From Thermomicrobiales bacterium (GTDB lineage: Bacteria > Chloroflexota > Chloroflexia > Thermomicrobiales > CFX8), in assembly GCA_041751795.1 (NCBI GenBank), contig JBGSWU010000181.1, positions 4,835 to 68,834 of the forward strand: a stretch of 64,000 bases of DNA, in the 5' to 3' direction. This document shows, piece after piece, positions 8,831-62,621 of the stretch. The notes beneath the pieces were generated by a model. That model was given only the letters and a program-made list of their open reading frames with translations. It had not been told where the DNA came from and did no database searches. The number at the start of each line of letters is the position of its first letter. Position 1 is the first letter of the stretch. A program made the translations under genes and the position numbers.

Positions 8831-11209
8831 ATGGTCGCAACACGAAATGAAACCAGGCTCGTTACTCTGACAATTGACGGCAAAGAGGTCACCGTCCCAG
8901 CTGGGACGACGATTCTCCAGGCGGCAGAAGCAAATGGCATCGAGGTGCCAAACCTTTGTTTCCAGCCGTTGCTTCGCGCATGGGGATCCTGCCGGCTCTG
9001 CACCGTCGAAATCCTTGGTTCCCGCGGTGGGTTAATTGAATCCTGTGCGACACCGGTCCGCGAAGGTCAGGAGATTTCCACTATCTCCGCTCCTGTCGTT
9101 GAGGCGCGTCAGTTCATCCTCCAGATGTATCTGATCGACCATGCGCTCGACTGCCCAACATGTGACAAATCCGGTGAGTGCTACCTTCAGGACAACACGT
9201 ATCTTCATAATGTCAGTGCCAACCCGTTTCGCAGGCCAAAACTCGCGCAGCCGTACAAGCATCTTCGTGAAACAATCGACTACAAATGGGATCGCTGCAT
9301 CATCTGTGCGCGATGCACTCGCGTCTGCGAGGAAATGATCGGTGTGACGGCAATTACTGTTGCCGGTCGCGGCCTTGAGGCCGAAATCACCTCCTCGTAT
9401 GGCGTCGATCTCCGAGACACATCGTGCACGAACTGCGGTATGTGTATCGCCGTTTGCCCAGTCGGAGCACTGACCGACCGGCACTTCGGCCATCATCCGT
9501 GGGAACTCGATGCCGTGGAAACCGTTTGCGGGTTTTGCGACGTCGGCTGCACGCTCAACGTCGAACACAACCGCGGGATCGTCCGGCGCGTGTCGCACCT
9601 ATGGGATCGTGGCGTCAATCTCGGTTACACCTGCGAACGCGGCAAGTGGGGACATGAGCAGGTCCAGGACCCAATGCGGCTGCGCTACGCTCGTATTAGC
9701 GAAGGCGGAGAGCAACTAGAAGTCGACCTGGATGAAGCACTAGATTTGGTCGCAGATAAGCTCCGGCATTACCAGGGAGCATCATTTGCCGCCCTCGCCT
9801 CTCCGGACAACACGAACGAAGATAACTATTCGCTTCAGCAGTTCACTCGTGCGGTTATGGGTTCCAACAATATCGACCGACTAATCTCTCATGCACAGTC
9901 TGGCGTTGATCGCGCCATGCTCCAGTCGTTCGGCGTCTCGGCCAGTACTGCGAGCATGCAGGAGATGCGAACCGATTCGCACTGCGCGCTGATCGTTGGA
10001 CCCGACATTGGATACAACGAGCCGATTGCCTCGTACTGGCTCTATTGGGCTTTACGCTATCGTGAAGCGAAGATGATCGTCGTTACGAACGACCATCAGT
10101 TCCTCTGCGATCGCAGCGACCGATGGATTCAGGCTCAGCCTGGCAGAGAGGCCGACGTCCTCAACGCGATGTCGAAGATCATCATTGCCAACGGTCTGGC
10201 GCAACCCGGTCCCCAGCTGGCGGAACTGACAAACAAGGTATCGTCAGTTGATGTTGCCGCGGTTGCAGCCGCAGCCGGAGTTTCGACGGCAATGCTCGAA
10301 GAATCGGCGATTCTCTATGCAACGGGTGGGCGTGGCATTGAAGAAGGCGTCACCGAGTATCCCACCAGCACGATCTGGCACACCGTTGCAGCTGGGTCTC
10401 CAAACGCAGAAGCCGCCGCGCTGGCAGCAAACAACCTAGCAGTCATCTGCGGCCACGTCGGCAAGCCCGGTGGCGGAGTCCTCGCCCTTCGCCAGAACGC
10501 GAACGCGCAAGGCAGTCTCGACGTCGGCTGTCACCCCGACCTCCTCCCAGGCGGCTTGAACGCGTCCGACGAGACGTCGCGGGCGATGTTCGCCGAACTG
10601 TGGTCACAGCGATGGAACGAATCGGGAGTTGCGCAAAACGGTTTCAAGCCGCTTCACGACCTCCCTTCGGCTGCTGGCGTCGGCGTCACAGATCTGACTG
10701 CAGCGATCGAGAGTGGTTCGATCAAGGCGATGTATGTCAGTGCTCAGTCACACAAGTGGTCTGCGTCAATCGATCCTGCGTTGCTGGCAGCTCTTGGCAC
10801 CCTGGAATTCCTAGTCGTCGAAGATTCGTTCAACAGCGAACTAACGAAAATGGCGCACGTCGTCCTGCCGACGGCTATGTATCTGGAGAAAGACGGTTCA
10901 TTCACGAACCTCGATCGAACCGTGCAACGCGTCCGATTCGCTGTATCGGCACCGGGAGATGCTCACGCGACCGTCTGGTACGTTGCAGAGATCGCGAAGC
11001 GACTGGGATACTCCCTCGAAGCCGACAACGCATCGACAATTATGGACGAGATTTCAACAGTGGTTCCTGCGTACTCAGGTGTCAGCTTCCCGCGTCTGGA
11101 ACGCGGCGGCATGCAGTGGCCGGTAACGAGTTTTGGCGCAGAACAGACGGTGTATCTGTCGGTGGGTCGAGGTCTGGCGCCAGACGACATTCGGATTGTT
11201 GCCGACTAG
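8831..11209 (+). CDS. NuoG/Nqo3-like Fe-S protein (2Fe-2S plus 4Fe-4S plus molybdopterin-oxidoreductase-like domain)
   Basis: 792 aa. N-terminal 2Fe-2S ferredoxin fold (LTIDGKEVTV...CRLCTVEI), His/Cys cluster motifs (HALDCPTCDKSGECYLQ; CIICARCTRVC; CTNCGMCIAVCPVGAL; CGFCDVGCTLNV), then a molybdopterin-type domain. Confidence 0.8.
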   Translation: MVATRNETRLVTLTIDGKEVTVPAGTTILQAAEANGIEVPNLCFQPLLRAWGSCRLCTVEILGSRGGLIESCATPVREGQEISTISAPVVEARQFILQMYLIDHALDCPTCDKSGECYLQDNTYLHNVSANPFRRPKLAQPYKHLRETIDYKWDRCIICARCTRVCEEMIGVTAITVAGRGLEAEITSSYGVDLRDTSCTNCGMCIAVCPVGALTDRHFGHHPWELDAVETVCGFCDVGCTLNVEHNRGIVRRVSHLWDRGVNLGYTCERGKWGHEQVQDPMRLRYARISEGGEQLEVDLDEALDLVADKLRHYQGASFAALASPDNTNEDNYSLQQFTRAVMGSNNIDRLISHAQSGVDRAMLQSFGVSASTASMQEMRTDSHCALIVGPDIGYNEPIASYWLYWALRYREAKMIVVTNDHQFLCDRSDRWIQAQPGREADVLNAMSKIIIANGLAQPGPQLAELTNKVSSVDVAAVAAAAGVSTAMLEESAILYATGGRGIEEGVTEYPTSTIWHTVAAGSPNAEAAALAANNLAVICGHVGKPGGGVLALRQNANAQGSLDVGCHPDLLPGGLNASDETSRAMFAELWSQRWNESGVAQNGFKPLHDLPSAAGVGVTDLTAAIESGSIKAMYVSAQSHKWSASIDPALLAALGTLEFLVVEDSFNSELTKMAHVVLPTAMYLEKDGSFTNLDRTVQRVRFAVSAPGDAHATVWYVAEIAKRLGYSLEADNASTIMDEISTVVPAYSGVSFPRLERGGMQWPVTSFGAEQTVYLSVGRGLAPDDIRIVAD

Positions 11210-11241
11210 CGGCTACGGCAACCTGAAAGGCGAACACAACG

Positions 11242-11697
11242 ATGCTAGATGAGTTCAAGGGGTTCGCAGTCACGCTGCGACGAATGGTGAAGAAGCCGGA
11301 AACGTTCGAGTATCCCGACGAAAAGCGTCAGTTCGCACCGCGATTCCGTGGACTGCCCTCGTTGCGCGCTGATCCGGAGACGGGCGAAGCGCTGTGTGTC
11401 GCCTGTGGTCTCTGCGCTCGAATCTGCCCAACGTCGTGCCTTGAAATGCACGTCGTCCCGTCCGAGGAAGGCGACCGTGAACTCGGCGAGTTCATCCTCC
11501 GCTCCGGACGCTGTCTATTCTGCGGGTTCTGCGCACAGGTGTGCCCGGTGGACGCGATTACGATGAGTGGAGCTTTCGAACGCTCCGTACTCGAGCGCGA
11601 CGGGCTGATCTACACGAAGACCGAACTGGCCGCATTCGGAGCTCAGAACGAAACCTGGTGGGGCGCCGACAGTCCCCCACGAGTGACGACACCGTAG
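11242..11697 (+). CDS. NuoI-like 2x[4Fe-4S] ferredoxin subunit
   Basis: 151 aa. Two CxxCxxCxxxCP motifs (CVACGLCARICP, CLFCGFCAQVCP) and a NuoI-like N-terminus (FKGFAVTLRRMVKKPETFEYPDEK). Confidence 0.75.
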   Translation: MLDEFKGFAVTLRRMVKKPETFEYPDEKRQFAPRFRGLPSLRADPETGEALCVACGLCARICPTSCLEMHVVPSEEGDRELGEFILRSGRCLFCGFCAQVCPVDAITMSGAFERSVLERDGLIYTKTELAAFGAQNETWWGADSPPRVTTP

Positions 11698-13363: not shown

Positions 13364-14212
13364 TCACGCAACGAGTGACCGCAACAGGATCAACGCATCA
13401 CGATCTTCAGCCAGATCCTCGCCCTTATCCGTTTCCAGCAGCGCCGGTTTGCCTGCAAATCGGGAATCGTTCATGAAGTTTCGGAAACCTTCTACGCCGA
13501 TGTACCCGGCACCGATATGAGCGTGACGATCACGCTTCGACCCAAACTCCGTCAATGCGTCGTTGAAATGAAACGCCTCGACCTGATCCGTTCCGATCAA
13601 CTCGTCGAACTTCTCAATCGTTTCAGCATAGGTCTCCGGCGTTCGAATGTCATATCCGGCGACGAACGTGTGACATGTGTCGTAACAGATGCCCAAGCGT
13701 TCTGGTGCAGCGACGCCTGTTAGCATGGCTGCAAGTTCCTCGAACGTTGCTCCAAGCGTCGTCCCCTGTCCAGCAGTTGTCTCCAGCAACGTCCTGACGG
13801 TATAGCCCGGTAGTTCATCGTGAACGCGATTGAGGGCGGCAATGACGCGCGTTATCCCCTCCTCGGTGCCTGAACCAGTATGCGCGCCCGGATGCGTTAC
13901 CAGGAACGGGATTCCAAGTTGCTCACACCGTTCGAGTTCGATCCGGAACGCGTCGATCGATTTTCCCCACATTTCGTCGTTCGGCGACGCGAGGTTGATC
14001 AAATACGAGTCGTGTGCCACGACTGGCGCGATCGAGCAGTCCAGACACGTCTGACGGAACAGCGCGGCGTCGTCGTCTGCGATCGGCTTCGCTTTCCATT
14101 GCTTCTGGTTCTTGGTGAAGATCTGCAACGCGTCTGAGTCGACGCTCTTTGCTCGGTGGACAGACTTATCGAGCCCACCAGCAATGGACATGTGCGCGCC
14201 AAGTTTCAGCAT
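13364..14212 (-). CDS. nfo: Endonuclease IV (AP endonuclease)
   Basis: 282 aa. MLKLGAHMSIAGGL N-terminus and TIM-barrel Nfo motifs (HDSYLINLAS, CYDTCHTFVAGYD, HFNDA). Confidence 0.9.
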   Translation of the reverse strand: MLKLGAHMSIAGGLDKSVHRAKSVDSDALQIFTKNQKQWKAKPIADDDAALFRQTCLDCSIAPVVAHDSYLINLASPNDEMWGKSIDAFRIELERCEQLGIPFLVTHPGAHTGSGTEEGITRVIAALNRVHDELPGYTVRTLLETTAGQGTTLGATFEELAAMLTGVAAPERLGICYDTCHTFVAGYDIRTPETYAETIEKFDELIGTDQVEAFHFNDALTEFGSKRDRHAHIGAGYIGVEGFRNFMNDSRFAGKPALLETDKGEDLAEDRDALILLRSLVA

Positions 14213-14218
14213 CAGTCG

Positions 14219-14587
14219 TTACTCTTTCCCGTTGTCGACACCCGTCAGCACCTGCAATCCGGCGCGGTCAAAACCGACGACAATTGCTCCACCAGCGACG
14301 ATCATTGGCCGGCGAATCAATGTCGGTTCTTCGACCATTGCAAGAAGCAGTTCGTCCTCGCTCAACACGTCAAACGCTGCCGGGGCAGATCGATACGCCT
14401 TCGAACGCGTCGACAGGACATCTCGGGCCGTCACGCTTGATGCCGTGAGGATCGACCTCAATTCTTCGACTTCGAATTTGGCCCTGAAGTAATCGCGGCG
14501 TTCGAATTTCACACCGTTGGAGGCGAGGAACTCCTCAGCCTTTTTGCAACTCGTTCAGGTCGGGTGAACGTAAACGGTTATCGCCAC
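14219..14587 (-). CDS. Spx/ArsC/YffB-family thioredoxin-fold protein with an in-frame TGA at the first Cys of CXXC (candidate selenocysteine; alternatively a pseudogene)
   Basis: The track ORF (14219..14512) lacks the family N-terminus. Reading upstream in the same frame gives GTG(14587) AITVYVHPT-TGA(14557..14555)-TSCKKAEEFLASNGVKFERRDY.... This aligns with Spx (TLYTSPSCTSCRKA) and YffB (TLYGIKNCDTCKKA), so the TGA replaces the first Cys. GGAGG lies 4 nt upstream of the GTG. The reconstructed length of 122 codons is typical for the family. Confidence 0.6.
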
Positions 14588-14676
14588 ACAGCCTCCGCAA
14601 CGTGTACGTACATTTGTTCGCGGATTGTATCATCACTGTTGGTCGCGAACTCGTCAGAACTGCGAAAGGCCGTCGG

Positions 14677-31598: not shown

Positions 31599-31681
31599 GG
31601 AGAGGTGGCCGAGCGGTTTAAGGCGGCTGTCTTGAAAACAGTTGAGGGAAACCTCCGGGGGTTCGAATCCCTCCCTCTCCG
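31599..31681 (+). tRNA. tRNA-Ser (anticodon UGA), CCA not encoded
   Basis: Hand-folded. Acceptor GGAGAGG/CCTCTCC, anticodon arm GCTGT-CTTGAAA-ACAGT, a long variable arm, T-loop GGGGG-TTCGAAT-CCCTC, and discriminator G followed by CA. Confidence 0.9.
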
Positions 31682-31694
31682 CAGCATTCGACCT

Positions 31695-31843: not shown

Positions 31844-31936
31844 GGGAAGGTGCCAGAGTGGTCGAATGGGGCCGCCTGCTAAGCGGTTGTGGGCTGTTAA
31901 GGTCTACCCAGGGTTCGAATCCCTGCCTTCCCGCCA
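31844..31936 (+). tRNA. tRNA-Ser (anticodon GCU), CCA encoded
   Basis: Hand-folded. Acceptor GGGAAGG/CCTTCCC, anticodon arm GCCGC-CTGCTAA-GCGGT, a long variable arm, T-loop GGTTCGAATCC, and discriminator G plus CCA. Confidence 0.9.
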
Positions 31937-48627: not shown

Positions 48628-49713
48628 GTGACGAAGACTATCGCAGTGATGACTGGTGGCGGCGACTGTCCAGGGATGAACGCTGCGCTCCGAAGCGTCG
48701 TTCGGTCAGCCACGAACCACTTTGGTTCTCGCGTCGTCGGAATCGCTGATGGCTTCGAAGGGTTGATCGAGAAGCGATATCGCGAACTGACCTCCAACGA
48801 TATGCGAGGCATTCTCCGAATAGGAGGAACAGTCCTTGGTTCGTCTAACCGGACGAATCCTTGGAAGTACGTCCCACATGGCCAATCGGAACCCATCGAT
48901 GCATCGGTAATCGCATCTGAAACGCTTCAGGAAATTGGCGCTGACGCGCTGATCGTTATCGGTGGCGATGGAACGCTATTCTTGGCGCATAAGTTTGCGG
49001 CTGGACGGATCCCAGTAGTTGGCATTCCGAAAACGATCGACAACGATGTCCACGGGACGGATCAAGCGATTGGTTTTGACACGTGTGTGGCGACCGTCAC
49101 CGACGCGATTGATAAATTGCATACCACCGCTGAATCACATCACCGTGTCATGATAATTGAGGTCATGGGTCGAACCGCAGGCTGGGTCGCTCTGTATGGG
49201 GGGGTAGCTGGCGGTGCGGACGCTATCCTCATTCCTGAGCGCGGGGATCTGCGACCTTACGAAATTTCTGCCTTAATCGAAACGATCAATGTGCGCCGGC
49301 AAGCCGGAACAAATTTCACGATGATCGTCGTTGCCGAGGGCGTTTCCAGTCCGACCGGGGAAAAGATCTTCTGGTCACGATCTGGTGAAGAACACGGCCA
49401 CCGACTCGGAGGTGTTTGTCACCCACTTGCGCGCGAACTTGAGCGACAAACCAATCGCGAGGTGAGATCTCTTGTTCTTGGGCACCTTCAACGGGGTGGC
49501 GATCCAACGCCCGCCGACCGGATACTCGCGACGAAGCTTGGTCACGCCGCAACGGTCGCCGCTCACGATGGTCGCGATGGAACGATGGCAGGTATCCGCG
49601 GACAGCACGTCGATCTCGTACCGTTGTCCCACGCAGCGTCAGGACCACGTCGAGTCCCTGAAGACGAACCGCTTCTTCTCGCTGCCGAGGCGATGGGAAT
49701 GTTCGTTGGCTAA
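48628..49713 (+). CDS. pfkA: 6-phosphofructokinase
   Basis: GTG start. IAVMTGGGDCPGMNAALRSVV, GGDGT, PKTIDND and MGR motifs. Confidence 0.9.
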   Translation: MTKTIAVMTGGGDCPGMNAALRSVVRSATNHFGSRVVGIADGFEGLIEKRYRELTSNDMRGILRIGGTVLGSSNRTNPWKYVPHGQSEPIDASVIASETLQEIGADALIVIGGDGTLFLAHKFAAGRIPVVGIPKTIDNDVHGTDQAIGFDTCVATVTDAIDKLHTTAESHHRVMIIEVMGRTAGWVALYGGVAGGADAILIPERGDLRPYEISALIETINVRRQAGTNFTMIVVAEGVSSPTGEKIFWSRSGEEHGHRLGGVCHPLARELERQTNREVRSLVLGHLQRGGDPTPADRILATKLGHAATVAAHDGRDGTMAGIRGQHVDLVPLSHAASGPRRVPEDEPLLLAAEAMGMFVG

Positions 49714-50806
49714 TTGCAACACGTTCCTCCCTCCCGGAAAGCTCCCACACGACATCCTGAGCCGGTTGATCAACTCCTATGTAACTCCCGATCAGGACGT
49801 TCTGATCGGACCAGGCGTGGGACGCGACGCCGCAGCGATCCGAGTTGGCGATCGAGCGATTGTCGTCAAGACCGATCCGATCACATTCGCTACCCCGGAC
49901 GCTGGCAGGTACCTCGTCAACGTCAATGCCAACGACATCGTCTGCATGGGTGCTTCACCTCGCTGGTTACTGGTGACTGCGCTGTTTCCTGAAGCTGGAA
50001 CGACAGAAGCGCTCGTCGAGGACGTTTTTTCGTCGCTGGCAGACGCGGCGTCCGAACTCGGTATCGCCCTTGTCGGCGGACATACGGAAATCACGATTGG
50101 GCTCGATCGCGTCATCCTCGTCGGCCAGATGCTTGGAGAAGCCGATCCTGACCGATTACTCGACATTCGTACTGCCCAAGAGGGAGATGCGGTTCTGCTG
50201 TGTTCGGGGATCGCGATCGAAGGCACGTCCATCCTGGCGGCTGAAGCCGGGGATCGGCTCAAACACCTGGACCCTGTGCTACTGGAACATGGTCGACGGT
50301 TCGGCGTATTTCCTGGCATCTCGGTGGTTCCCGCTGCAACAGCGCTGATGGCATCTAGTGCGACCATTCGCGGCATGCACGACCCTACCGAGGGCGGACT
50401 GGCGAGCGCTCTCGTAGAACTCGCGATTGCTGCTGAACTAGGGATTGAAATTGTCGAAGCGACGATCAAGGTATATCCAGAAACGACAGCAATCTGCACT
50501 GCACTGGACATTGACCCACTTGGACTTATTGCAAGTGGAGCGCTTCTGGCTGTTGTGGCTGAATCGGATGTACAGAATGCAATAGAAAGCGTTCGTCGCG
50601 CTGGAATTGACATCGCCCAAATCGGCAAGATGACCCATCGAGATTCAGGTCACGTTCTTATTCGAAAGGGCTGCCGCGAATCCCTACCGACGTTCGCAGT
50701 CGATGAAATCGCCCGATTCCTTGCATCGCACGGTACGTCCGCAACGAACGAGTCGAACGAGTCGAACGAGTCGAACGCACGATTGAAGTCGGCCGGATTC
50801 GCTTGA
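49706..50806 (+). CDS. AIR synthase-related (PurM superfamily; HypE/ThiL/SelD-related) protein of unknown function
   Basis: LPPGKLPHDILSRL N-terminus, DAAAIRVGDRAIVVKTDPITF, and GGHTEIT. A start at TTG 49706 is proposed, with an 8-nt overlap with the pfk end. The earlier part of the track ORF lies inside pfk in another frame. Confidence 0.7.
   Translation: MANCNTFLPPGKLPHDILSRLINSYVTPDQDVLIGPGVGRDAAAIRVGDRAIVVKTDPITFATPDAGRYLVNVNANDIVCMGASPRWLLVTALFPEAGTTEALVEDVFSSLADAASELGIALVGGHTEITIGLDRVILVGQMLGEADPDRLLDIRTAQEGDAVLLCSGIAIEGTSILAAEAGDRLKHLDPVLLEHGRRFGVFPGISVVPAATALMASSATIRGMHDPTEGGLASALVELAIAAELGIEIVEATIKVYPETTAICTALDIDPLGLIASGALLAVVAESDVQNAIESVRRAGIDIAQIGKMTHRDSGHVLIRKGCRESLPTFAVDEIARFLASHGTSATNESNESNESNARLKSAGFA
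50754..50785 (+). repeat. 9-bp tandem repeat (GAACGAGTC x3 plus a partial copy) encoding (NES)3
   Basis: Read directly from the sequence. It lies in the C-terminal tail of the PurM-superfamily gene. Confidence 0.8.
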
Positions 50807-50866: not shown

Positions 50867-52822
50867 TTACATGTCCTTGGTCAATGTCACCAGGAACTCA
50901 GCGTTCGTCGGCGTCTTTGCGAGCCGGGCAAGAACCAACTCAGTGCCTTCAGTTCCACCAAGCATCGACACCATGCGACGCATTGTATACACCTGACGTA
51001 GTGCATGTTCATCGAGCAACAAGTCCTCACGACGCGTACCGGATCGCTGGATGTCGATCGACGGGTAGATGCGACGCTCGGCCAGTTTCCGGTCAAGGTG
51101 CAACTCCATGTTGCCGGTTCCCTTGAACTCCTCATAGATGACATCATCCATTCTGGAGCCGGTATCGACAAGGCATGTTGCAACGATCGTCAGACTGCCA
51201 CCGCCTTCGATGTTACGAGCGGCACCGAAAAAGCGCTTCGGTGGGTAGAGCGCGATTGGGTCGATACCACCGGAAAGCGTTCGTCCACTTGGAGGAACGG
51301 CAAGGTTGTACGCACGAGCCAACCGCGTAATCGAGTCGAGGAGAATAACGACATCGCGTCCGCCCTCGACGAGCCGCTTCGATCGCTCGAGAACCATCTC
51401 TGCGACCTTGGTGTGATCCTCGACCGGCTCGTCGAACGTCGACGATATGACTTCGCCGTCCACCGATCGCTTCATGTCCGTCACTTCTTCTGGCCGCTCA
51501 CCGATGAGACAAACCATCAGATGGATGTCCTGGTAATTGGACGTGACACCGTTCGCGATTGCCTTGAGAATGATCGTCTTGCCAGCCTTTGGCGGCGACA
51601 CGATGAGTCCTCGCTGGCCCCTGCCAATCGGCGCGACAAGATTCAGCAGCCGCGTCGAGATGATATTCGGCTGGGTTTCAAGGTCGATCATTTCCAGCGG
51701 GAAAATCGGCGTCAACGTGTCGAAGTTAGGTCGCCGTCGTGCTATCTCTGGATCGACACCGTTCACGGCCTCAACACGGAGCAGCGAATGAAACTTTTCG
51801 CTTTCCTTCGGCGGTCGGATCTGGCCGGAAATCTTGTCACCTGTGCGCAGTCCGAACCGGCGAATCTGCGATTGCGACACATAGATGTCGTCAGGACCAG
51901 GCAGGTACCGCTCACCTCGCAGGAAGCCGAATCCATCTTCGATTATATCGAGGACACCTTCTCCATATTTGTACCCAGCCGCTTCCGACTGCGCCTGGAG
52001 GATTCTCCCGATTAGATCGATCTTCTTGTATCGCTGGTAATTCGCAATTTCAAGGTCGCCCGCGATCTTGTGCAGCTCGTCAAACTGCTTCGCATCAAGG
52101 TCACTAACGCTCAGCATCGGCGTATCACGCAGAATCAGATCGGCGTTTCGATCGCGATCTCGATCACGCTGGGGCCGATTTCTGAAGTTCCGATCCTGGC
52201 CCTGATGCCGCTGATGGTCGGACGAACCGTTCGAGTCTGATCGCTGATGTCCACTATCACGTCGATCTCGCGGACGGTCCTGGCGCTGCTGCCGCGGCTG
52301 TTGCTGTTGTTGTGGTGGTGGTGGTGGCTGCGGATTCTGTTGCGTCTGTGACTGAGACTGTTGCGGAGCGGGTTCAGCAGGTTGCGACTTTTCTGCTGGC
52401 GCCGGTGCCTGAGCAGACGCTGATGTCTGAACCTGTGCCGCTACCTGGGAAGTTTCGGATGGCACCGACGGCTGATCAGGTACCGCAGACGATTCCTGTA
52501 GTTCAACCGCCGCAGCAGGGACGCTGGCAGCGTCCTTCGCGCCGTTTGAGGCAATGTCCGGAGCCTGCTCAGCGGACTGAACGGCAGGCGCAGTCTCGCT
52601 CGCTGCCTTCGGCGACTGACGTCGTGCAGTCGACCGAGCGGCTGCCACAACCGGAGCATCTGCCGACTGCATTGTGCTGTCAGGTGACACAGATTCGCCA
52701 GGTTGTTCGGCAACGTCCGTCGCTTTGGGCGTGCGCTTCCTCGGAGCGCGCGTTCGCGGCTTCGGCGCTTCGTCCTCAGGCTGATCGCTTGCGATTTTTG
52801 CGCTCTGTTCTTGGGACTCCAT
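50867..52822 (-). CDS. rho: Transcription termination factor Rho with an approximately 235-aa N-terminal extension
   Basis: The C-terminal approximately 415 aa are canonical Rho: a Rho_N-like [18 protein letters not shown], the RNA-binding [32 protein letters not shown], and P-loop [12 protein letters not shown]. The upstream 235 codons are in frame, stop-free, and A/P/Q/S- then R/D/Q-rich. Confidence 0.9.
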
Positions 52823-62349: not shown

Positions 62350-62621
62350 GTGGCCGTGCACCCTCCAGTCGATCTGCGATCCTCCAGCTTGCGTCAGCTA
62401 GTTAGCTCCAGTCAGGCAGCCCCACGTCACCCACGGGTAACCGTTTATGGCTGCTTCCTTCCGGACCTGACCAGGTTCGCGGGTCCGCGCCGCGCAGGAC
62501 CTAACCTTCATCACCACTTAGCCGAGCAGTCCCAAAGGGTCGGACCTCAGGAGGGAATTCCGTCCCGCTAAAGCGGATTGCGGGTGCAGGGCACCGCTAG
62601 CTCCCCACCTAGCACGACCAC
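62350..62621 (-). ncRNA. ffs: Signal recognition particle RNA, large (Bacillus-type, with Alu domain)
   Basis: The minus strand reads GGTCGTGCTAGGTGGGGAGCTAGCGGTGCCCTGCACCCGCAATCCGCTTTAGC... This closely parallels the 5' Alu domain of B. subtilis scRNA as I recall it. It then contains the universally conserved domain IV motif GGTCAGGTCCGGAAGGAAGCAGCC and ends ...GGAGGGTGCACGGCCAC. That end pairs with the 5' GTGGTCGTGC. A TATAAT lies at 62631..62626 just upstream. Confidence 0.85.

What the first reader, a model, noticed from the sequence alone, without database searches (positions are those of the whole stretch)
14219..14587. Spx/ArsC-family gene with UGA at the first Cys of CXXC plus a downstream hairpin with a bulged U and GU loop: candidate selenoprotein
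**Seen in sequence**
- The track ORF (14219..14512) starts inside the family fold.
- Extending the same frame upstream gives GTG(14587)-AITVYVHPT-TGA-TSCKKAEEFLASNGVKFERRDY.
- GGAGG lies 4 nt upstream of the GTG.
- The in-frame TGA is at 14557..14555.
- 14 nt after the TGA, the mRNA can fold as GGC-U(bulge)-GAGG-AGUU-CCUC-GCC (14540..14522). That is a stem with a bulged U and an apical loop containing adjacent G and U, and the loop G/U sits 27-28 nt from the U of UGA.

**Established knowledge**
- The N-terminus aligns residue for residue with Spx (TLYTSPSCTSCRKA) and YffB (TLYGIKNCDTCKKA), so the TGA falls on the redox-active first Cys.
- Cys/Sec pairs at CXXC positions of thioredoxin-fold proteins are the commonest class of bacterial selenoproteins.
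- As I recall it, SelB recognition in E. coli fdhF depends on a bulged U and loop G/U a defined distance downstream of UGA.

**Inference**
- This is either UxxC Sec recoding or a very recent nonsense mutation.
- The window shows no sel genes, so it cannot discriminate between the two.
Basis: partly seen in the sequence, partly recalled or inferred. Interest (0 to 1): 0.75.

Follow-up and report, generated by a model that had tools for sequence, protein, structure and literature searches.

The report
Selenocysteine ArsC/Spx-like gene, mis-called truncated
This is a real gene for a small redox protein that uses the rare amino acid selenocysteine, encoded by a UGA 'stop' codon read with the help of a conserved RNA hairpin; it belongs to a selenoprotein family already described, but databases routinely record it as a shortened protein.

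Summary
The 122-codon ORF (GTG 14587 to TAA 14219, minus strand) is an ArsC/Spx-family protein with UGA at the first Cys of CXXC.

The same UGA is found in 34 of 57 Thermomicrobiales/Chloroflexota species-representative genomes and in five metagenomic lineages. The four residues before the UGA are essentially invariant while their third codon positions vary freely. An AGUU-loop hairpin sits at a fixed distance and shows compensatory base changes. The Cys-encoding relatives, 13 of which share the same gene neighbourhood, lack this hairpin.

Cultured relatives with the UGA (Nitrolancea hollandica, Sphaerobacter thermophilus) are published as SelA+/SelB+/SelD+. The source genome's own Sec machinery could not be checked. 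The "bulged U" is not conserved.

UxxC ArsC-family selenoproteins ("Arsenate reductase 2", cd03032) were described in 2008 and 2016, so this is a new member of a known kind. The practical point is that public records, including a RefSeq protein, carry only the truncated product. The gene forms a conserved operon with nfo behind a conserved palindrome.

The parts
14219..14587 (-). Full-length CDS of a 122-residue UxxC ArsC/Spx-family selenoprotein (GTG start 14587..14585; Sec codon 11; Cys14; TAA stop 14221..14219). Gene callers report only 14219..14512 (97 aa).
   Evidence: (P0001 is the 97-aa truncated call).
14555..14557 (-). In-frame UGA, read as selenocysteine. It occupies the first position of the U-T-S-C redox motif, equivalent to Spx Cys10.
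14546..14548 (-). TGC codon for Cys14, the resolving Cys of the UxxC motif. It is invariant as Cys (TGC 28, TGT 9) in all 37 TGA forms.
14522..14540 (-). SECIS hairpin, mRNA +18..+36 counted from the U of UGA. It has a 4-bp upper stem GAGG/CCUC, an AGUU tetraloop (14532..14529) and a lower stem GGC/GCC with U14537 bulged. There are 22 nt between the UGA and the loop.
14592..14596 (-). Shine-Dalgarno GGAGG, 4 nt before the GTG start.
   Evidence: equivalent purine-rich boxes in orthologues.
14624..14632 (-). Extended -10 promoter box TGATACAAT. It is identical in L001, L002, L006/7, L017 and L022.
   Evidence: inference from conservation; the simple promoter scan, did not call it because there is no good -35.
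14603..14612 (.). Perfect 10-bp palindrome TGTACGTACA between the -10 box and the RBS. It is a candidate operator and the only copy in the window.
13364..14212 (-). nfo (deoxyribonuclease IV). Its ATG lies 6 nt after the selenoprotein's stop, so the two genes are probably co-transcribed.
   Evidence: TIGR00587, 294 bits against a cutoff of 129.65; synteny.

Best explanation
The gene at 14587..14219 (minus strand) encodes a 122-residue thioredoxin-fold protein of the ArsC/Spx family. Its first redox-motif residue is selenocysteine (U11-T-S-C14). During translation, the hairpin 14 nt downstream of the UGA (AGUU tetraloop on a 4-bp stem, extended by a lower stem) acts as a bacterial SECIS element. 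It recruits SelB-GTP-Sec-tRNA(Sec) to the ribosome, so that UGA 14557..14555 is decoded as Sec instead of terminating. The full-length protein then uses the Sec11/Cys14 pair as a selenol/thiol redox centre that forms a selenenylsulfide. It is co-transcribed with the DNA-repair endonuclease gene nfo, from a promoter followed by a conserved palindromic operator. What is shown: the UGA, its conservation, translation of both flanks in one frame, the conserved and covarying hairpin, Sec/Cys interchange among relatives that share the nfo neighbourhood, family membership, and operon synteny. What is inferred: SelB dependence, actual Se incorporation, the chemistry of the UxxC centre, and the cellular role, most likely a thiol/selenol oxidoreductase or redox sensor in an oxidative-damage response.
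For: (a) Every gene call that appeared truncated among the homologues hides the same TGA. That covers five metagenomic or MAG clusters and 34 of 57 Chloroflexota species representatives, including Nitrolancea hollandica Lb, Thermalbibacter longus CFH 74404 and Sphaerobacter MAGs. S. thermophilus DSM 20745 has a truncated record in the same 90%-identity cluster. (b) At codons -4 to -1 the residues V-H-P-T are invariant or nearly so in the 37 TGA forms, while third positions vary freely (Val 4 codons, His CAC 18 / CAT 18, Pro 4, Thr 4). The segment before the UGA is therefore translated in frame. (c) Hairpin: 25 of 37 TGA forms have 6-7 of 7 fixed-register pairs, against 0 of 21 Cys forms. The loop at +26..+29 is AGUU in 31 of 37 TGA forms and 0 of 21 Cys forms. 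AGUU persists under different peptides (EEFL, QQLL, VQLH). A26, G27 and U28 are invariant in the 33-sequence alignment. (d) Covariation: 84.8% of cells are paired, against 39-55% for slid registers. There are 16 double-sided changes against 1.9 expected (0 of 500 shuffles). Pair 21-34 occurs as UA 12, CG 10, UG 8 and GC 1, and RNAalifold finds the same stem. (e) The element meets the published bSECIS model: 4-nt loop, G then U at loop positions 2-3, 22-nt spacing, MFE -12.6 kcal/mol or lower. (f) The strict signature (AGUU plus 4 bp at that register) occurs at only one of all TGA triplets in the window, and it is this one. (g) Cys forms that share the nfo neighbour (13 of 21) are interleaved with Sec forms on the tree, the usual Sec/Cys exchange pattern. 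(h) Peng et al. 2016, Tables S1 and S2: N. hollandicus Lb, S. thermophilus and T. roseum are SelD+ SelA+ SelB+ with 8, 9 and 5 selenoproteins. (i) TGA is otherwise an ordinary stop here, for example in nfo and about 25 other long ORFs.
Against: No selA, selB, selD or tRNA-Sec is present in the window or in about 1.3 Mb of related loci. The source assembly could not be identified, so Sec machinery in this particular genome is unverified. No second selenoprotein candidate exists in the window. No Rfam family matches the hairpin, although I believe Rfam has no model for short bacterial in-ORF SECIS elements. The generic bSECIS model is permissive: 35% of true TGA stops in the window pass it. There are no experimental data (75Se labelling, mass spectrometry) for any member of this clade. 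The window's own lower stem deviates from the majority, with a bulge instead of the 21-34 pair.
Confidence: 0.9

Rival explanations
1. Recent nonsense mutation or pseudogene. The TGA is a TGC/TGT-to-TGA point mutation that inactivated the gene in this genome, and the hairpin is coincidental.
For: Most full-length database homologues have Cys at this position. A single transition-type change converts TGC/TGT to TGA. No sel genes are in the window.
Against: The same TGA occurs in 37 distinct sequences spanning about 45-60% protein identity. The reading frame is intact on both sides. Synonymous-only variation occurs upstream of the TGA. The hairpin covaries. The only visibly disrupted TGA-form copy among the loci read is L054, and that is a long-read MAG.
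Confidence: 0.01
2. Translation starts downstream of the TGA (GTG 14512 or equivalent). This gives the 97-aa product that databases list, and the upstream segment is an untranslated leader or a short upstream ORF.
For: This is what gene callers and public records show (P0001, 97 aa; CCF82664.1 79 aa, WP_012872139.1 93 aa, MCM8748972.1 97 aa).
Against: The internal start positions differ between orthologues (products of 72-104 aa), so no conserved start exists. The truncated product would lack strand beta-1, the CXXC motif and helix alpha-1 of the thioredoxin fold, which align to Spx residues 2-30. The upstream codons are under amino-acid-level selection, and a strong GGAGG precedes GTG 14587.
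Confidence: 0.03
3. SECIS-independent read-through or a reassigned UGA. The UGA is decoded as Trp, Cys or Gly by a suppressor or near-cognate tRNA, and the hairpin merely slows the ribosome or release factor 2.
For: The source genome's Sec machinery has not been seen. Stimulatory downstream hairpins are known for stop-codon read-through in general (background knowledge).
Against: TGA ends many ordinary genes in the window, so the codon is not reassigned. The UGA aligns precisely with a redox Cys, the classic Sec/Cys pair. The hairpin has the SelB-type signature, G-U at loop positions 2-3 at an allowed spacing. Cultured clade members possess SelA, SelB and SelD.
Confidence: 0.04
4. The hairpin is only a by-product of the conserved peptide KKAEEFL and has no RNA function.
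For: 31 of 37 TGA forms encode E-E-F-L or Q-E-F-L there, which with GC-rich codon usage tends to give GAGGAGTTCCTC.
Against: The AGUU loop and the stem persist where the peptide is QQLL or VQLH. The Glu/Gln third positions in the stem and loop are almost frozen: G24 in 32 of 33 sequences, the one exception carrying a compensating change, and G27 in 33 of 33. By contrast, synonymous sites just upstream vary freely. The wobble base of the preceding Ala/Thr codon covaries with a base 13 nt away in a different codon (UA, CG, UG, GC). Cys forms in the same neighbourhood do not keep this peptide or the hairpin.
Confidence: 0.02

Closest known systems
'Arsenate reductase 2' UxxC selenoprotein family (CDD cd03032), Zhang & Gladyshev 2008 (PMC2398784); counted in 14 sequenced bacteria by Peng et al. 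2016 (PMC5029168, Table S3)
   Same: ArsC-family thioredoxin fold with Sec at the first position of a UxxC motif and many Cys homologues. By my recollection cd03032 is the Spx subfamily, which fits this protein's best hits (TIGR01617 and Spx structures).
   Different: CDD could not be scanned here, so identity with that family is inferred rather than tested. The original description came from marine metagenomes, whereas this clade is terrestrial or thermophilic Thermomicrobiales. The papers held do not describe the nfo operon, the AGUU SECIS or the upstream palindrome.
NCBIfam NF041106 'ArsC family (seleno)protein' (ArsC_rel_Se_1), listed as 'Arsenate reductase-like protein, UxxC' in PMC9312934 and PMC13188914
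   Same: Same superfamily, same UxxC position, also a selenoprotein or Cys-homologue family.
   Different: The window protein scores 33.7 bits against a cutoff of 85, so it is a different subfamily.
Spx / MgsR of Firmicutes (PDB 1z3e, 3l78, 6ghb, 7f75)
   Same: Closest solved structures (E = 7e-16 to 4e-13; ungapped alignment over about 106 residues). N-terminal C10-x-x-C13 redox switch at the same position. Conserved STRSK and LxRRP motifs. Passes the TIGR01617 cutoff.
   Different: Sec replaces Cys10. Spx Gly52, which I recall as critical for binding the RNA polymerase alpha-CTD, aligns to Thr53. The Spx C-terminal tail (about residues 115-131) is absent. This clade has its own near-invariant R-R-D-Y-F motif where Spx has E-R-N-I-F. 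No evidence here bears on RNA polymerase binding.
E. coli fdhF SECIS (SelB-binding minimal hairpin)
   Same: A 4-bp upper stem capped by a tetraloop with G-U at loop positions 2-3, plus, in this window only, a single bulged pyrimidine below the upper stem. Located in the ORF just after the UGA (the fdhF sequence is recalled from memory).
   Different: The loop G/U sits at +27/+28 rather than +23/+24. The loop is AGUU, not GGUC. The bulge is not conserved in the clade.
Glutaredoxin-coupled arsenate reductase ArsC (R773 type, TIGR00014; PDB 1i9d)
   Same: Same Pfam family PF03960, with the nucleophilic Cys12 at the equivalent position.
   Different: Scores 52.9 bits against a cutoff of 106. ArsC has a single catalytic Cys rather than CXXC. 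There is no ars operon context; the neighbour here is nfo.

Membership tests
Bacterial SelB/SECIS-dependent selenoprotein gene | In-frame UGA aligned with a conserved (redox) Cys in homologues | tested here: met
   UGA aligns to the first Cys of CTSC in 21 Chloroflexota Cys forms and to Spx Cys10.
Bacterial SelB/SECIS-dependent selenoprotein gene | Coding conservation on both sides of the UGA, with the UGA itself conserved in other organisms | tested here: met
   37 distinct TGA forms. V-H-P-T before and T-[STG]-C-[KR] after are conserved, with synonymous variation.
Bacterial SelB/SECIS-dependent selenoprotein gene | bSECIS hairpin per the model in PMC13188914 Fig. 2A: 3-9 nt loop, 4-16 bp upper stem, G in the first two loop positions, 16-37 nt from the UGA, MFE no higher than -7.5 kcal/mol | tested here: met
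   Loop AGUU, 4-bp upper stem plus 3-bp lower stem, 22-nt spacing, -12.6 kcal/mol. 32 of 37 TGA forms pass. Covariation supports the stem. Caveat: the model alone is permissive, since 6 of 17 true stops also pass.
Bacterial SelB/SECIS-dependent selenoprotein gene | selA, selB, selC (tRNA-Sec) and selD present in the same genome | not testable with these tools
   None found in the 64-kb window or the fetched loci, and the source assembly was not retrievable. At lineage level, N. hollandicus Lb, S. thermophilus and T. roseum are listed SelD+/SelA+/SelB+.
Bacterial SelB/SECIS-dependent selenoprotein gene | Demonstrated selenium incorporation (75Se labelling or mass spectrometry) | not testable with these tools
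   This needs an experiment. None was found in the papers searched.
Spx/MgsR family (NCBIfam TIGR01617) | HMM score above the curated cutoff | tested here: met
   88.1 bits against 75.05, with U replaced by C. The narrower Spx models (NF002459, NF009210, NF009885) fall below their cutoffs.
Spx/MgsR family (functional Spx: RNA-polymerase-binding redox regulator) | Residues for alpha-CTD binding (Gly52) and the C-terminal regulatory tail | tested here: not met
   An ungapped alignment puts Thr53 at Spx Gly52, and the protein ends at 122 aa without the Spx tail. The role of Gly52 is recalled from the literature, not re-verified here. Sequence alone cannot exclude RNA polymerase binding.
'Arsenate reductase 2' UxxC selenoproteins (cd03032; PMC2398784) | CDD cd03032 membership plus a UxxC motif | tested here: inconclusive
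   UxxC is met. CDD is not available here; the proxies (TIGR01617 pass, Spx as nearest structures) agree.
NF041106 ArsC family (seleno)protein | HMM score above the cutoff (85 bits) | tested here: not met
   33.7 bits.
Glutaredoxin-dependent arsenate reductase ArsC (TIGR00014) | HMM score above the cutoff (106 bits) | tested here: not met
   52.9 bits. There are no ars genes nearby.

The most novel reading that the evidence does not exclude
The protein is a genuine Spx-type regulator, that is, an RNA-polymerase-binding redox switch whose sensing residue is selenocysteine. It would control an oxidative-damage regulon that includes its own nfo operon. That would make it the first selenoprotein acting as a transcription regulator rather than an enzyme, with expression gated by selenium supply. 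My evidence does not exclude this: it passes the Spx/MgsR family model and Spx is its nearest structure. Nothing positively supports it either: Gly52 is not conserved, the C-terminal tail is missing, and selenoproteins are, as far as I know, almost always catalytic.
Probability: 0.1. Interest if true: 0.7.

Novelty: new member of a known kind. Interest (0 to 1): 0.3.

Why it matters
The main value is corrective. A widespread Thermomicrobiales gene is recorded in public databases only as an N-terminally truncated 'arsenate reductase-like' or 'hypothetical' protein of 72-104 aa that lacks its active site (the look-up could not search for U-containing records). It is in fact a 115-125-aa UxxC selenoprotein. 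The 37-sequence set also gives an unusually clean, covariation-supported SECIS (AGUU tetraloop, +26..+29) for a phylum whose SECIS elements are, to my knowledge, little characterised. That could seed a clade-specific model for finding further Chloroflexota selenoproteins. The conserved pairing with nfo and the upstream palindrome offer a testable lead to the function of the still-uncharacterised 'Arsenate reductase 2' selenoprotein family. None of this overturns current understanding.

Tried and rejected
(1) I looked for selA, selB and selD by tblastn with the E. coli proteins, and for tRNA-Sec with ARAGORN, in the window and in 1.3 Mb of related loci. Nothing was found. The one weak SelD-like hit (window about 49.7-50.8 kb) is a generic AIR-synthase-family protein below every NCBIfam cutoff (HypE 109 vs 252, SelD 67 vs 125).

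(2) I tried to identify the source assembly through exact-product look-ups of two window proteins. Neither is on record. The genome is not among the GTDB species representatives, where the best match is 57%.

(3) Rfam found no SECIS family at gathering or permissive thresholds.

(4) I scanned every long ORF for N- or C-terminal extension through a single TGA. Only this gene is convincing. The 792-aa molybdopterin/NuoG-like protein has no interrupting TGA.

(5) The raw MFE difference between TGA and Cys forms is only modest (-12.0 vs -9.7 kcal/mol, p = 0.01), and the generic bSECIS filter is permissive. I therefore relied on fixed-register pairing, loop identity and covariation.

I dropped it because the fold is already clear from sequence.

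(7) The exact-sequence look-up does not accept 'U', and X-substituted full-length forms are not in the collection. I therefore cannot exclude that some database holds a correctly annotated U-containing record.

(8) I considered a LexA-box reading of the upstream CGAAC-N4-GTAC. It is not conserved beyond the window and L001, so I did not pursue it.

Full report
**Observation**

On the minus strand the sequence reads GGAGG (14596..14592), then 4 nt, then GTG (14587). The peptide is V-AITVYVHPT, then TGA (14557..14555), then TSCKKAEEFLASNGVKFERRDYF..., ending at TAA (14221..14219). Mechanical ORF listing gives only 14219..14512, 97 aa. This is also the only product that the public protein collection holds for this locus (P0001).

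With the TGA read as Cys, the 122-residue product matches Pfam ArsC (PF03960, 2e-19). It also passes the NCBIfam Spx/MgsR subfamily model TIGR01617 (88.1 bits against 75.05). The nearest solved structures are all Spx (3l78 at 6.8e-16, plus 7f75, 6ghb and 1z3e). They align without gaps from residue 2-3, so the TGA corresponds to Spx Cys10 and Cys14 to Spx Cys13.

The hairpin GGC-U-GAGG/AGUU/CCUC-GCC at 14540..14522 is the RNAfold optimum (-12.6 kcal/mol, z = -1.9). Every coordinate in the finding is correct.

**Is it more than chance?**

Taken alone, only marginally. I applied the published bacterial SECIS model: 3-9 nt loop, at least a 4-bp upper stem, G in the first two loop positions, 16-37 nt from the UGA, MFE no higher than -7.5 kcal/mol (PMC13188914). 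It is passed by 6 of 17 ordinary TGA stop codons and 96 of 600 random TGA triplets in this window. The decisive evidence is comparative.

**Comparative evidence**

- *Truncated calls.* Full-length database homologues carry YVHPT-C-TSCKKA. Every homologue cluster with a shortened product hides the same in-frame TGA once the DNA is read. These are P0037-P0041, from JGI, Logan and an NCBI MAG.
- *Species representatives.* A scan of one genome per species returned 57 Chloroflexota loci, almost all Thermomicrobiales. Of these, 34 have TGA at this codon, 22 have TGC or TGT, and one is cut by a contig end. The TGA set includes the cultured Nitrolancea hollandica Lb (L035) and Thermalbibacter longus CFH 74404 (L047), plus Sphaerobacter MAGs.
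- *Distinct sequences.* Counting distinct sequences gives 37 TGA forms and 21 Cys forms.
- *Selection upstream of the UGA.* In the 37 TGA forms, the four residues before the UGA are essentially invariant (V 37, H 36, P 37, T 37) while third codon positions vary freely: GTT/GTC/GTA/GTG, CAC 18 / CAT 18, four Pro codons, four Thr codons. The segment upstream of the UGA is therefore translated, in the same frame as the segment downstream.
- *Conclusion.* This excludes a recent nonsense mutation and an internal start as the explanation.

**The RNA element**

- *Fixed register.* Numbering from the U of UGA, pairs 19-36 to 25-30 are formed at 6-7 of 7 positions in 25 of 37 TGA forms and in none of 21 Cys forms. 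The loop at +26..+29 is AGUU in 31 of 37 TGA forms and 0 of 21 Cys forms.
- *Independence from the peptide.* The loop survives changes of the encoded peptide: EEFL (GAG-GAG-UUC-CUC), QQLL (CAG-CAG-UUG-CUG) and VQLH (GUG-CAG-UUG-CAC).
- *Covariation.* In a gap-free alignment of 33 TGA forms, A26, G27 and U28 are invariant. 84.8% of cells pair, against 39-55% when the 3' arm is slid by 1-3 columns. Four of seven pairs show double-sided changes. There are 16 such cells against 1.9 expected, with 0 of 500 shuffles reaching that. Pair 21-34 occurs as U-A (12), C-G (10), U-G (8) and G-C (1). RNAalifold independently returns the same five inner pairs.
- *Other variants.* Five sequences (the Nitrolancea/Sphaerobacter group) use a register shifted by one, with a GUU or GUA triloop. 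A few divergent lineages (L008, L009, L012, L059, L063) have a different hairpin with a G-containing loop.
- *Uniqueness.* The strict signature, AGUU on four pairs at that distance, occurs at exactly one TGA triplet in the whole 64-kb window, and it is this one.
- *The bulged U.* The window's bulged U is column 21, which is paired in 31 of 33 sequences. In L001 and L022, which fold with a bulge like the window's, the bulged base is C and G respectively. The bulge is therefore not a conserved determinant, whereas the G-U at loop positions 2-3 is.

**Sec/Cys relationship and context**

The gene is followed 6 nt later by nfo (deoxyribonuclease IV; TIGR00587, 294 bits against 129.65). It is preceded divergently by rmlD. 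The nfo neighbour is present in 34 of the other 36 TGA forms and in 13 of 21 Cys forms. Many Cys forms are therefore probably orthologues at the same locus. The non-syntenic 'AQAWLDE' Cys forms look like paralogues. On a neighbour-joining tree, Sec and Cys forms are interleaved. This is the pattern of repeated Sec/Cys exchange described for bacterial selenoproteins (PMC1794560).

**Sec machinery**

The window has no tRNA-Sec. Neither the window nor 1.3 Mb of fetched loci contains selA, selB or selD. A weak SelD-like hit near 50 kb is a generic AIR-synthase-family protein.

At lineage level, Peng et al. 2016 list Nitrolancetus hollandicus Lb, Sphaerobacter thermophilus DSM 20745 and Thermomicrobium roseum DSM 5159 as SelD+, SelA+ and SelB+, with 8, 9 and 5 selenoproteins. 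N. hollandica carries the TGA form (L035). S. thermophilus has a truncated record in the same cluster as the Sphaerobacter TGA form. TGA otherwise terminates many ordinary genes in the window, so the codon is not reassigned.

**Mechanism, most likely**

SelB-GTP-Sec-tRNA(Sec) binds the AGUU hairpin as the ribosome reaches UGA 14557..14555 and inserts Sec at position 11. This gives a thioredoxin-fold protein with a U-T-S-C centre that cycles between selenol/thiol and selenenylsulfide. The steps shown are the recoding signals and their evolutionary constraint. SelB dependence, Se incorporation and the chemistry are inferred from established knowledge of bacterial Sec decoding and CXXC proteins.

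The cellular role is unknown. The conserved operon with an oxidative-damage repair nuclease suggests a redox-stress function. Whether the protein is an oxidoreductase or an Spx-like regulator cannot be settled from sequence. Spx Gly52, which I recall as needed for alpha-CTD binding, aligns to Thr53. The Spx C-terminal tail is absent, and the clade has its own near-invariant RRDYF motif.

**Comparison with what is known**

UxxC selenoproteins of the ArsC family are already catalogued:
- 'ArsC-like' (PMC1794560);
- 'Arsenate reductase 2, cd03032, UxxC', with 42 sequences in the GOS data (PMC2398784) and 14 sequenced organisms in 2016;

The window protein fails NF041106 (33.7 vs 85) and the true ArsC model TIGR00014 (52.9 vs 106). 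It fits the Spx-like branch, which by my recollection is what cd03032 denotes, so it most likely belongs to 'Arsenate reductase 2'. CDD could not be scanned, so that assignment is inferred.

Public records for the cultured relatives are all truncated. They are CCF82664.1 (79 aa, 'Arsenate reductase-like protein', N. hollandica), WP_012872139.1 (93 aa, 'ArsC/Spx/MgsR family protein', S. thermophilus) and MCM8748972.1 (97 aa, 'hypothetical protein', T. longus). The look-up cannot take 'U', so a correctly annotated record elsewhere cannot be excluded.

**Verdict**

This is a genuine selenocysteine-encoding gene (confidence about 0.9) and a new member of a known selenoprotein kind. It would not surprise a specialist. 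Its value lies in correcting annotation, in providing a well-supported Chloroflexota SECIS, and in offering an operon and operator lead to function. Interest is 0.3.

Noticed in passing
window 14603..14612 and 14624..14632 (minus-strand promoter region); L001, L002, L006/7, L017, L022, L052 and others: An extended -10 box TGATACAAT is followed about 11 nt later by a perfect 10-bp palindrome, TGTACGTACA. The pair is conserved upstream of the selenoprotein-nfo operon in several lineages. Variants (TGTCCGTACA, GCGTACGTAC, TGTACGGACA) occur upstream of other Sec forms and of syntenic Cys forms. It is probably an operator overlapping the transcription start, and the regulator is unknown. In the window and L001 it overlaps CGAAC-N4-GTAC, close to a LexA/Cheo box.
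   Followed up: partly
window 13364..14212 (-): nfo (deoxyribonuclease IV) starts 6 nt after the selenoprotein's stop. The ArsC/Spx-like + nfo pair is conserved in 34 of the other 36 TGA forms and 13 of 21 Cys forms across Thermomicrobiales. I do not know of a described functional link between these two families.
   Followed up: partly
L054 (CAVXOL010000024.1, long-read MAG), about 10001-10367: This TGA form has the normal N-terminus and SECIS (MPVTAYVHPT*TSCKKAEEFLSDHGV...) but then loses the frame (...TLRASRLLSGSVHR instead of ...RRDYF...). This is either a long-read indel error or a real frameshifted copy.
   Followed up: no
L059 and L063 (Chloroflexota MAGs), about 10001: A more distant branch of the family also has TGA at the same codon (IYIKPG*TSCRKSLDLL). 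Its hairpin is different (CUGCUG-GAGA/GACA-CAGCAG) and lies farther downstream. Sec use in this family therefore extends beyond Thermomicrobiales, with a second SECIS type.
   Followed up: partly
window 50867..52822 (-): The sequence reads as transcription terminator Rho (P-loop [12 protein letters not shown]). It carries an N-terminal extension of about 230 residues that is low-complexity and rich in Q, P, S, R and D (...[24 protein letters not shown]...).
   Followed up: no
window 49700..50806 (+): AIR-synthase-family protein that falls below the cutoffs of HypE, ThiL and SelD alike (best is HypE, 109 vs 252 bits). It ends in an NESNESNESN repeat. It is not SelD, and its function is unassigned.
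   Followed up: partly
window 8831..11697 (+) and L001 12765..15631: A 792-aa NuoG/formate-dehydrogenase-like molybdopterin protein plus a 151-aa 4Fe-4S ferredoxin are syntenic between the window and the soil-metagenome contig L001. The large subunit has no in-frame TGA, so it is not a second selenoprotein.
   Followed up: partly
window 62354..62617 (-); 31599..31682 and 31844..31936 (+): Bacterial large SRP RNA (196 bits) and two tRNA-Ser genes (anticodons UGA and GCU). These are ordinary housekeeping RNAs.
   Followed up: no
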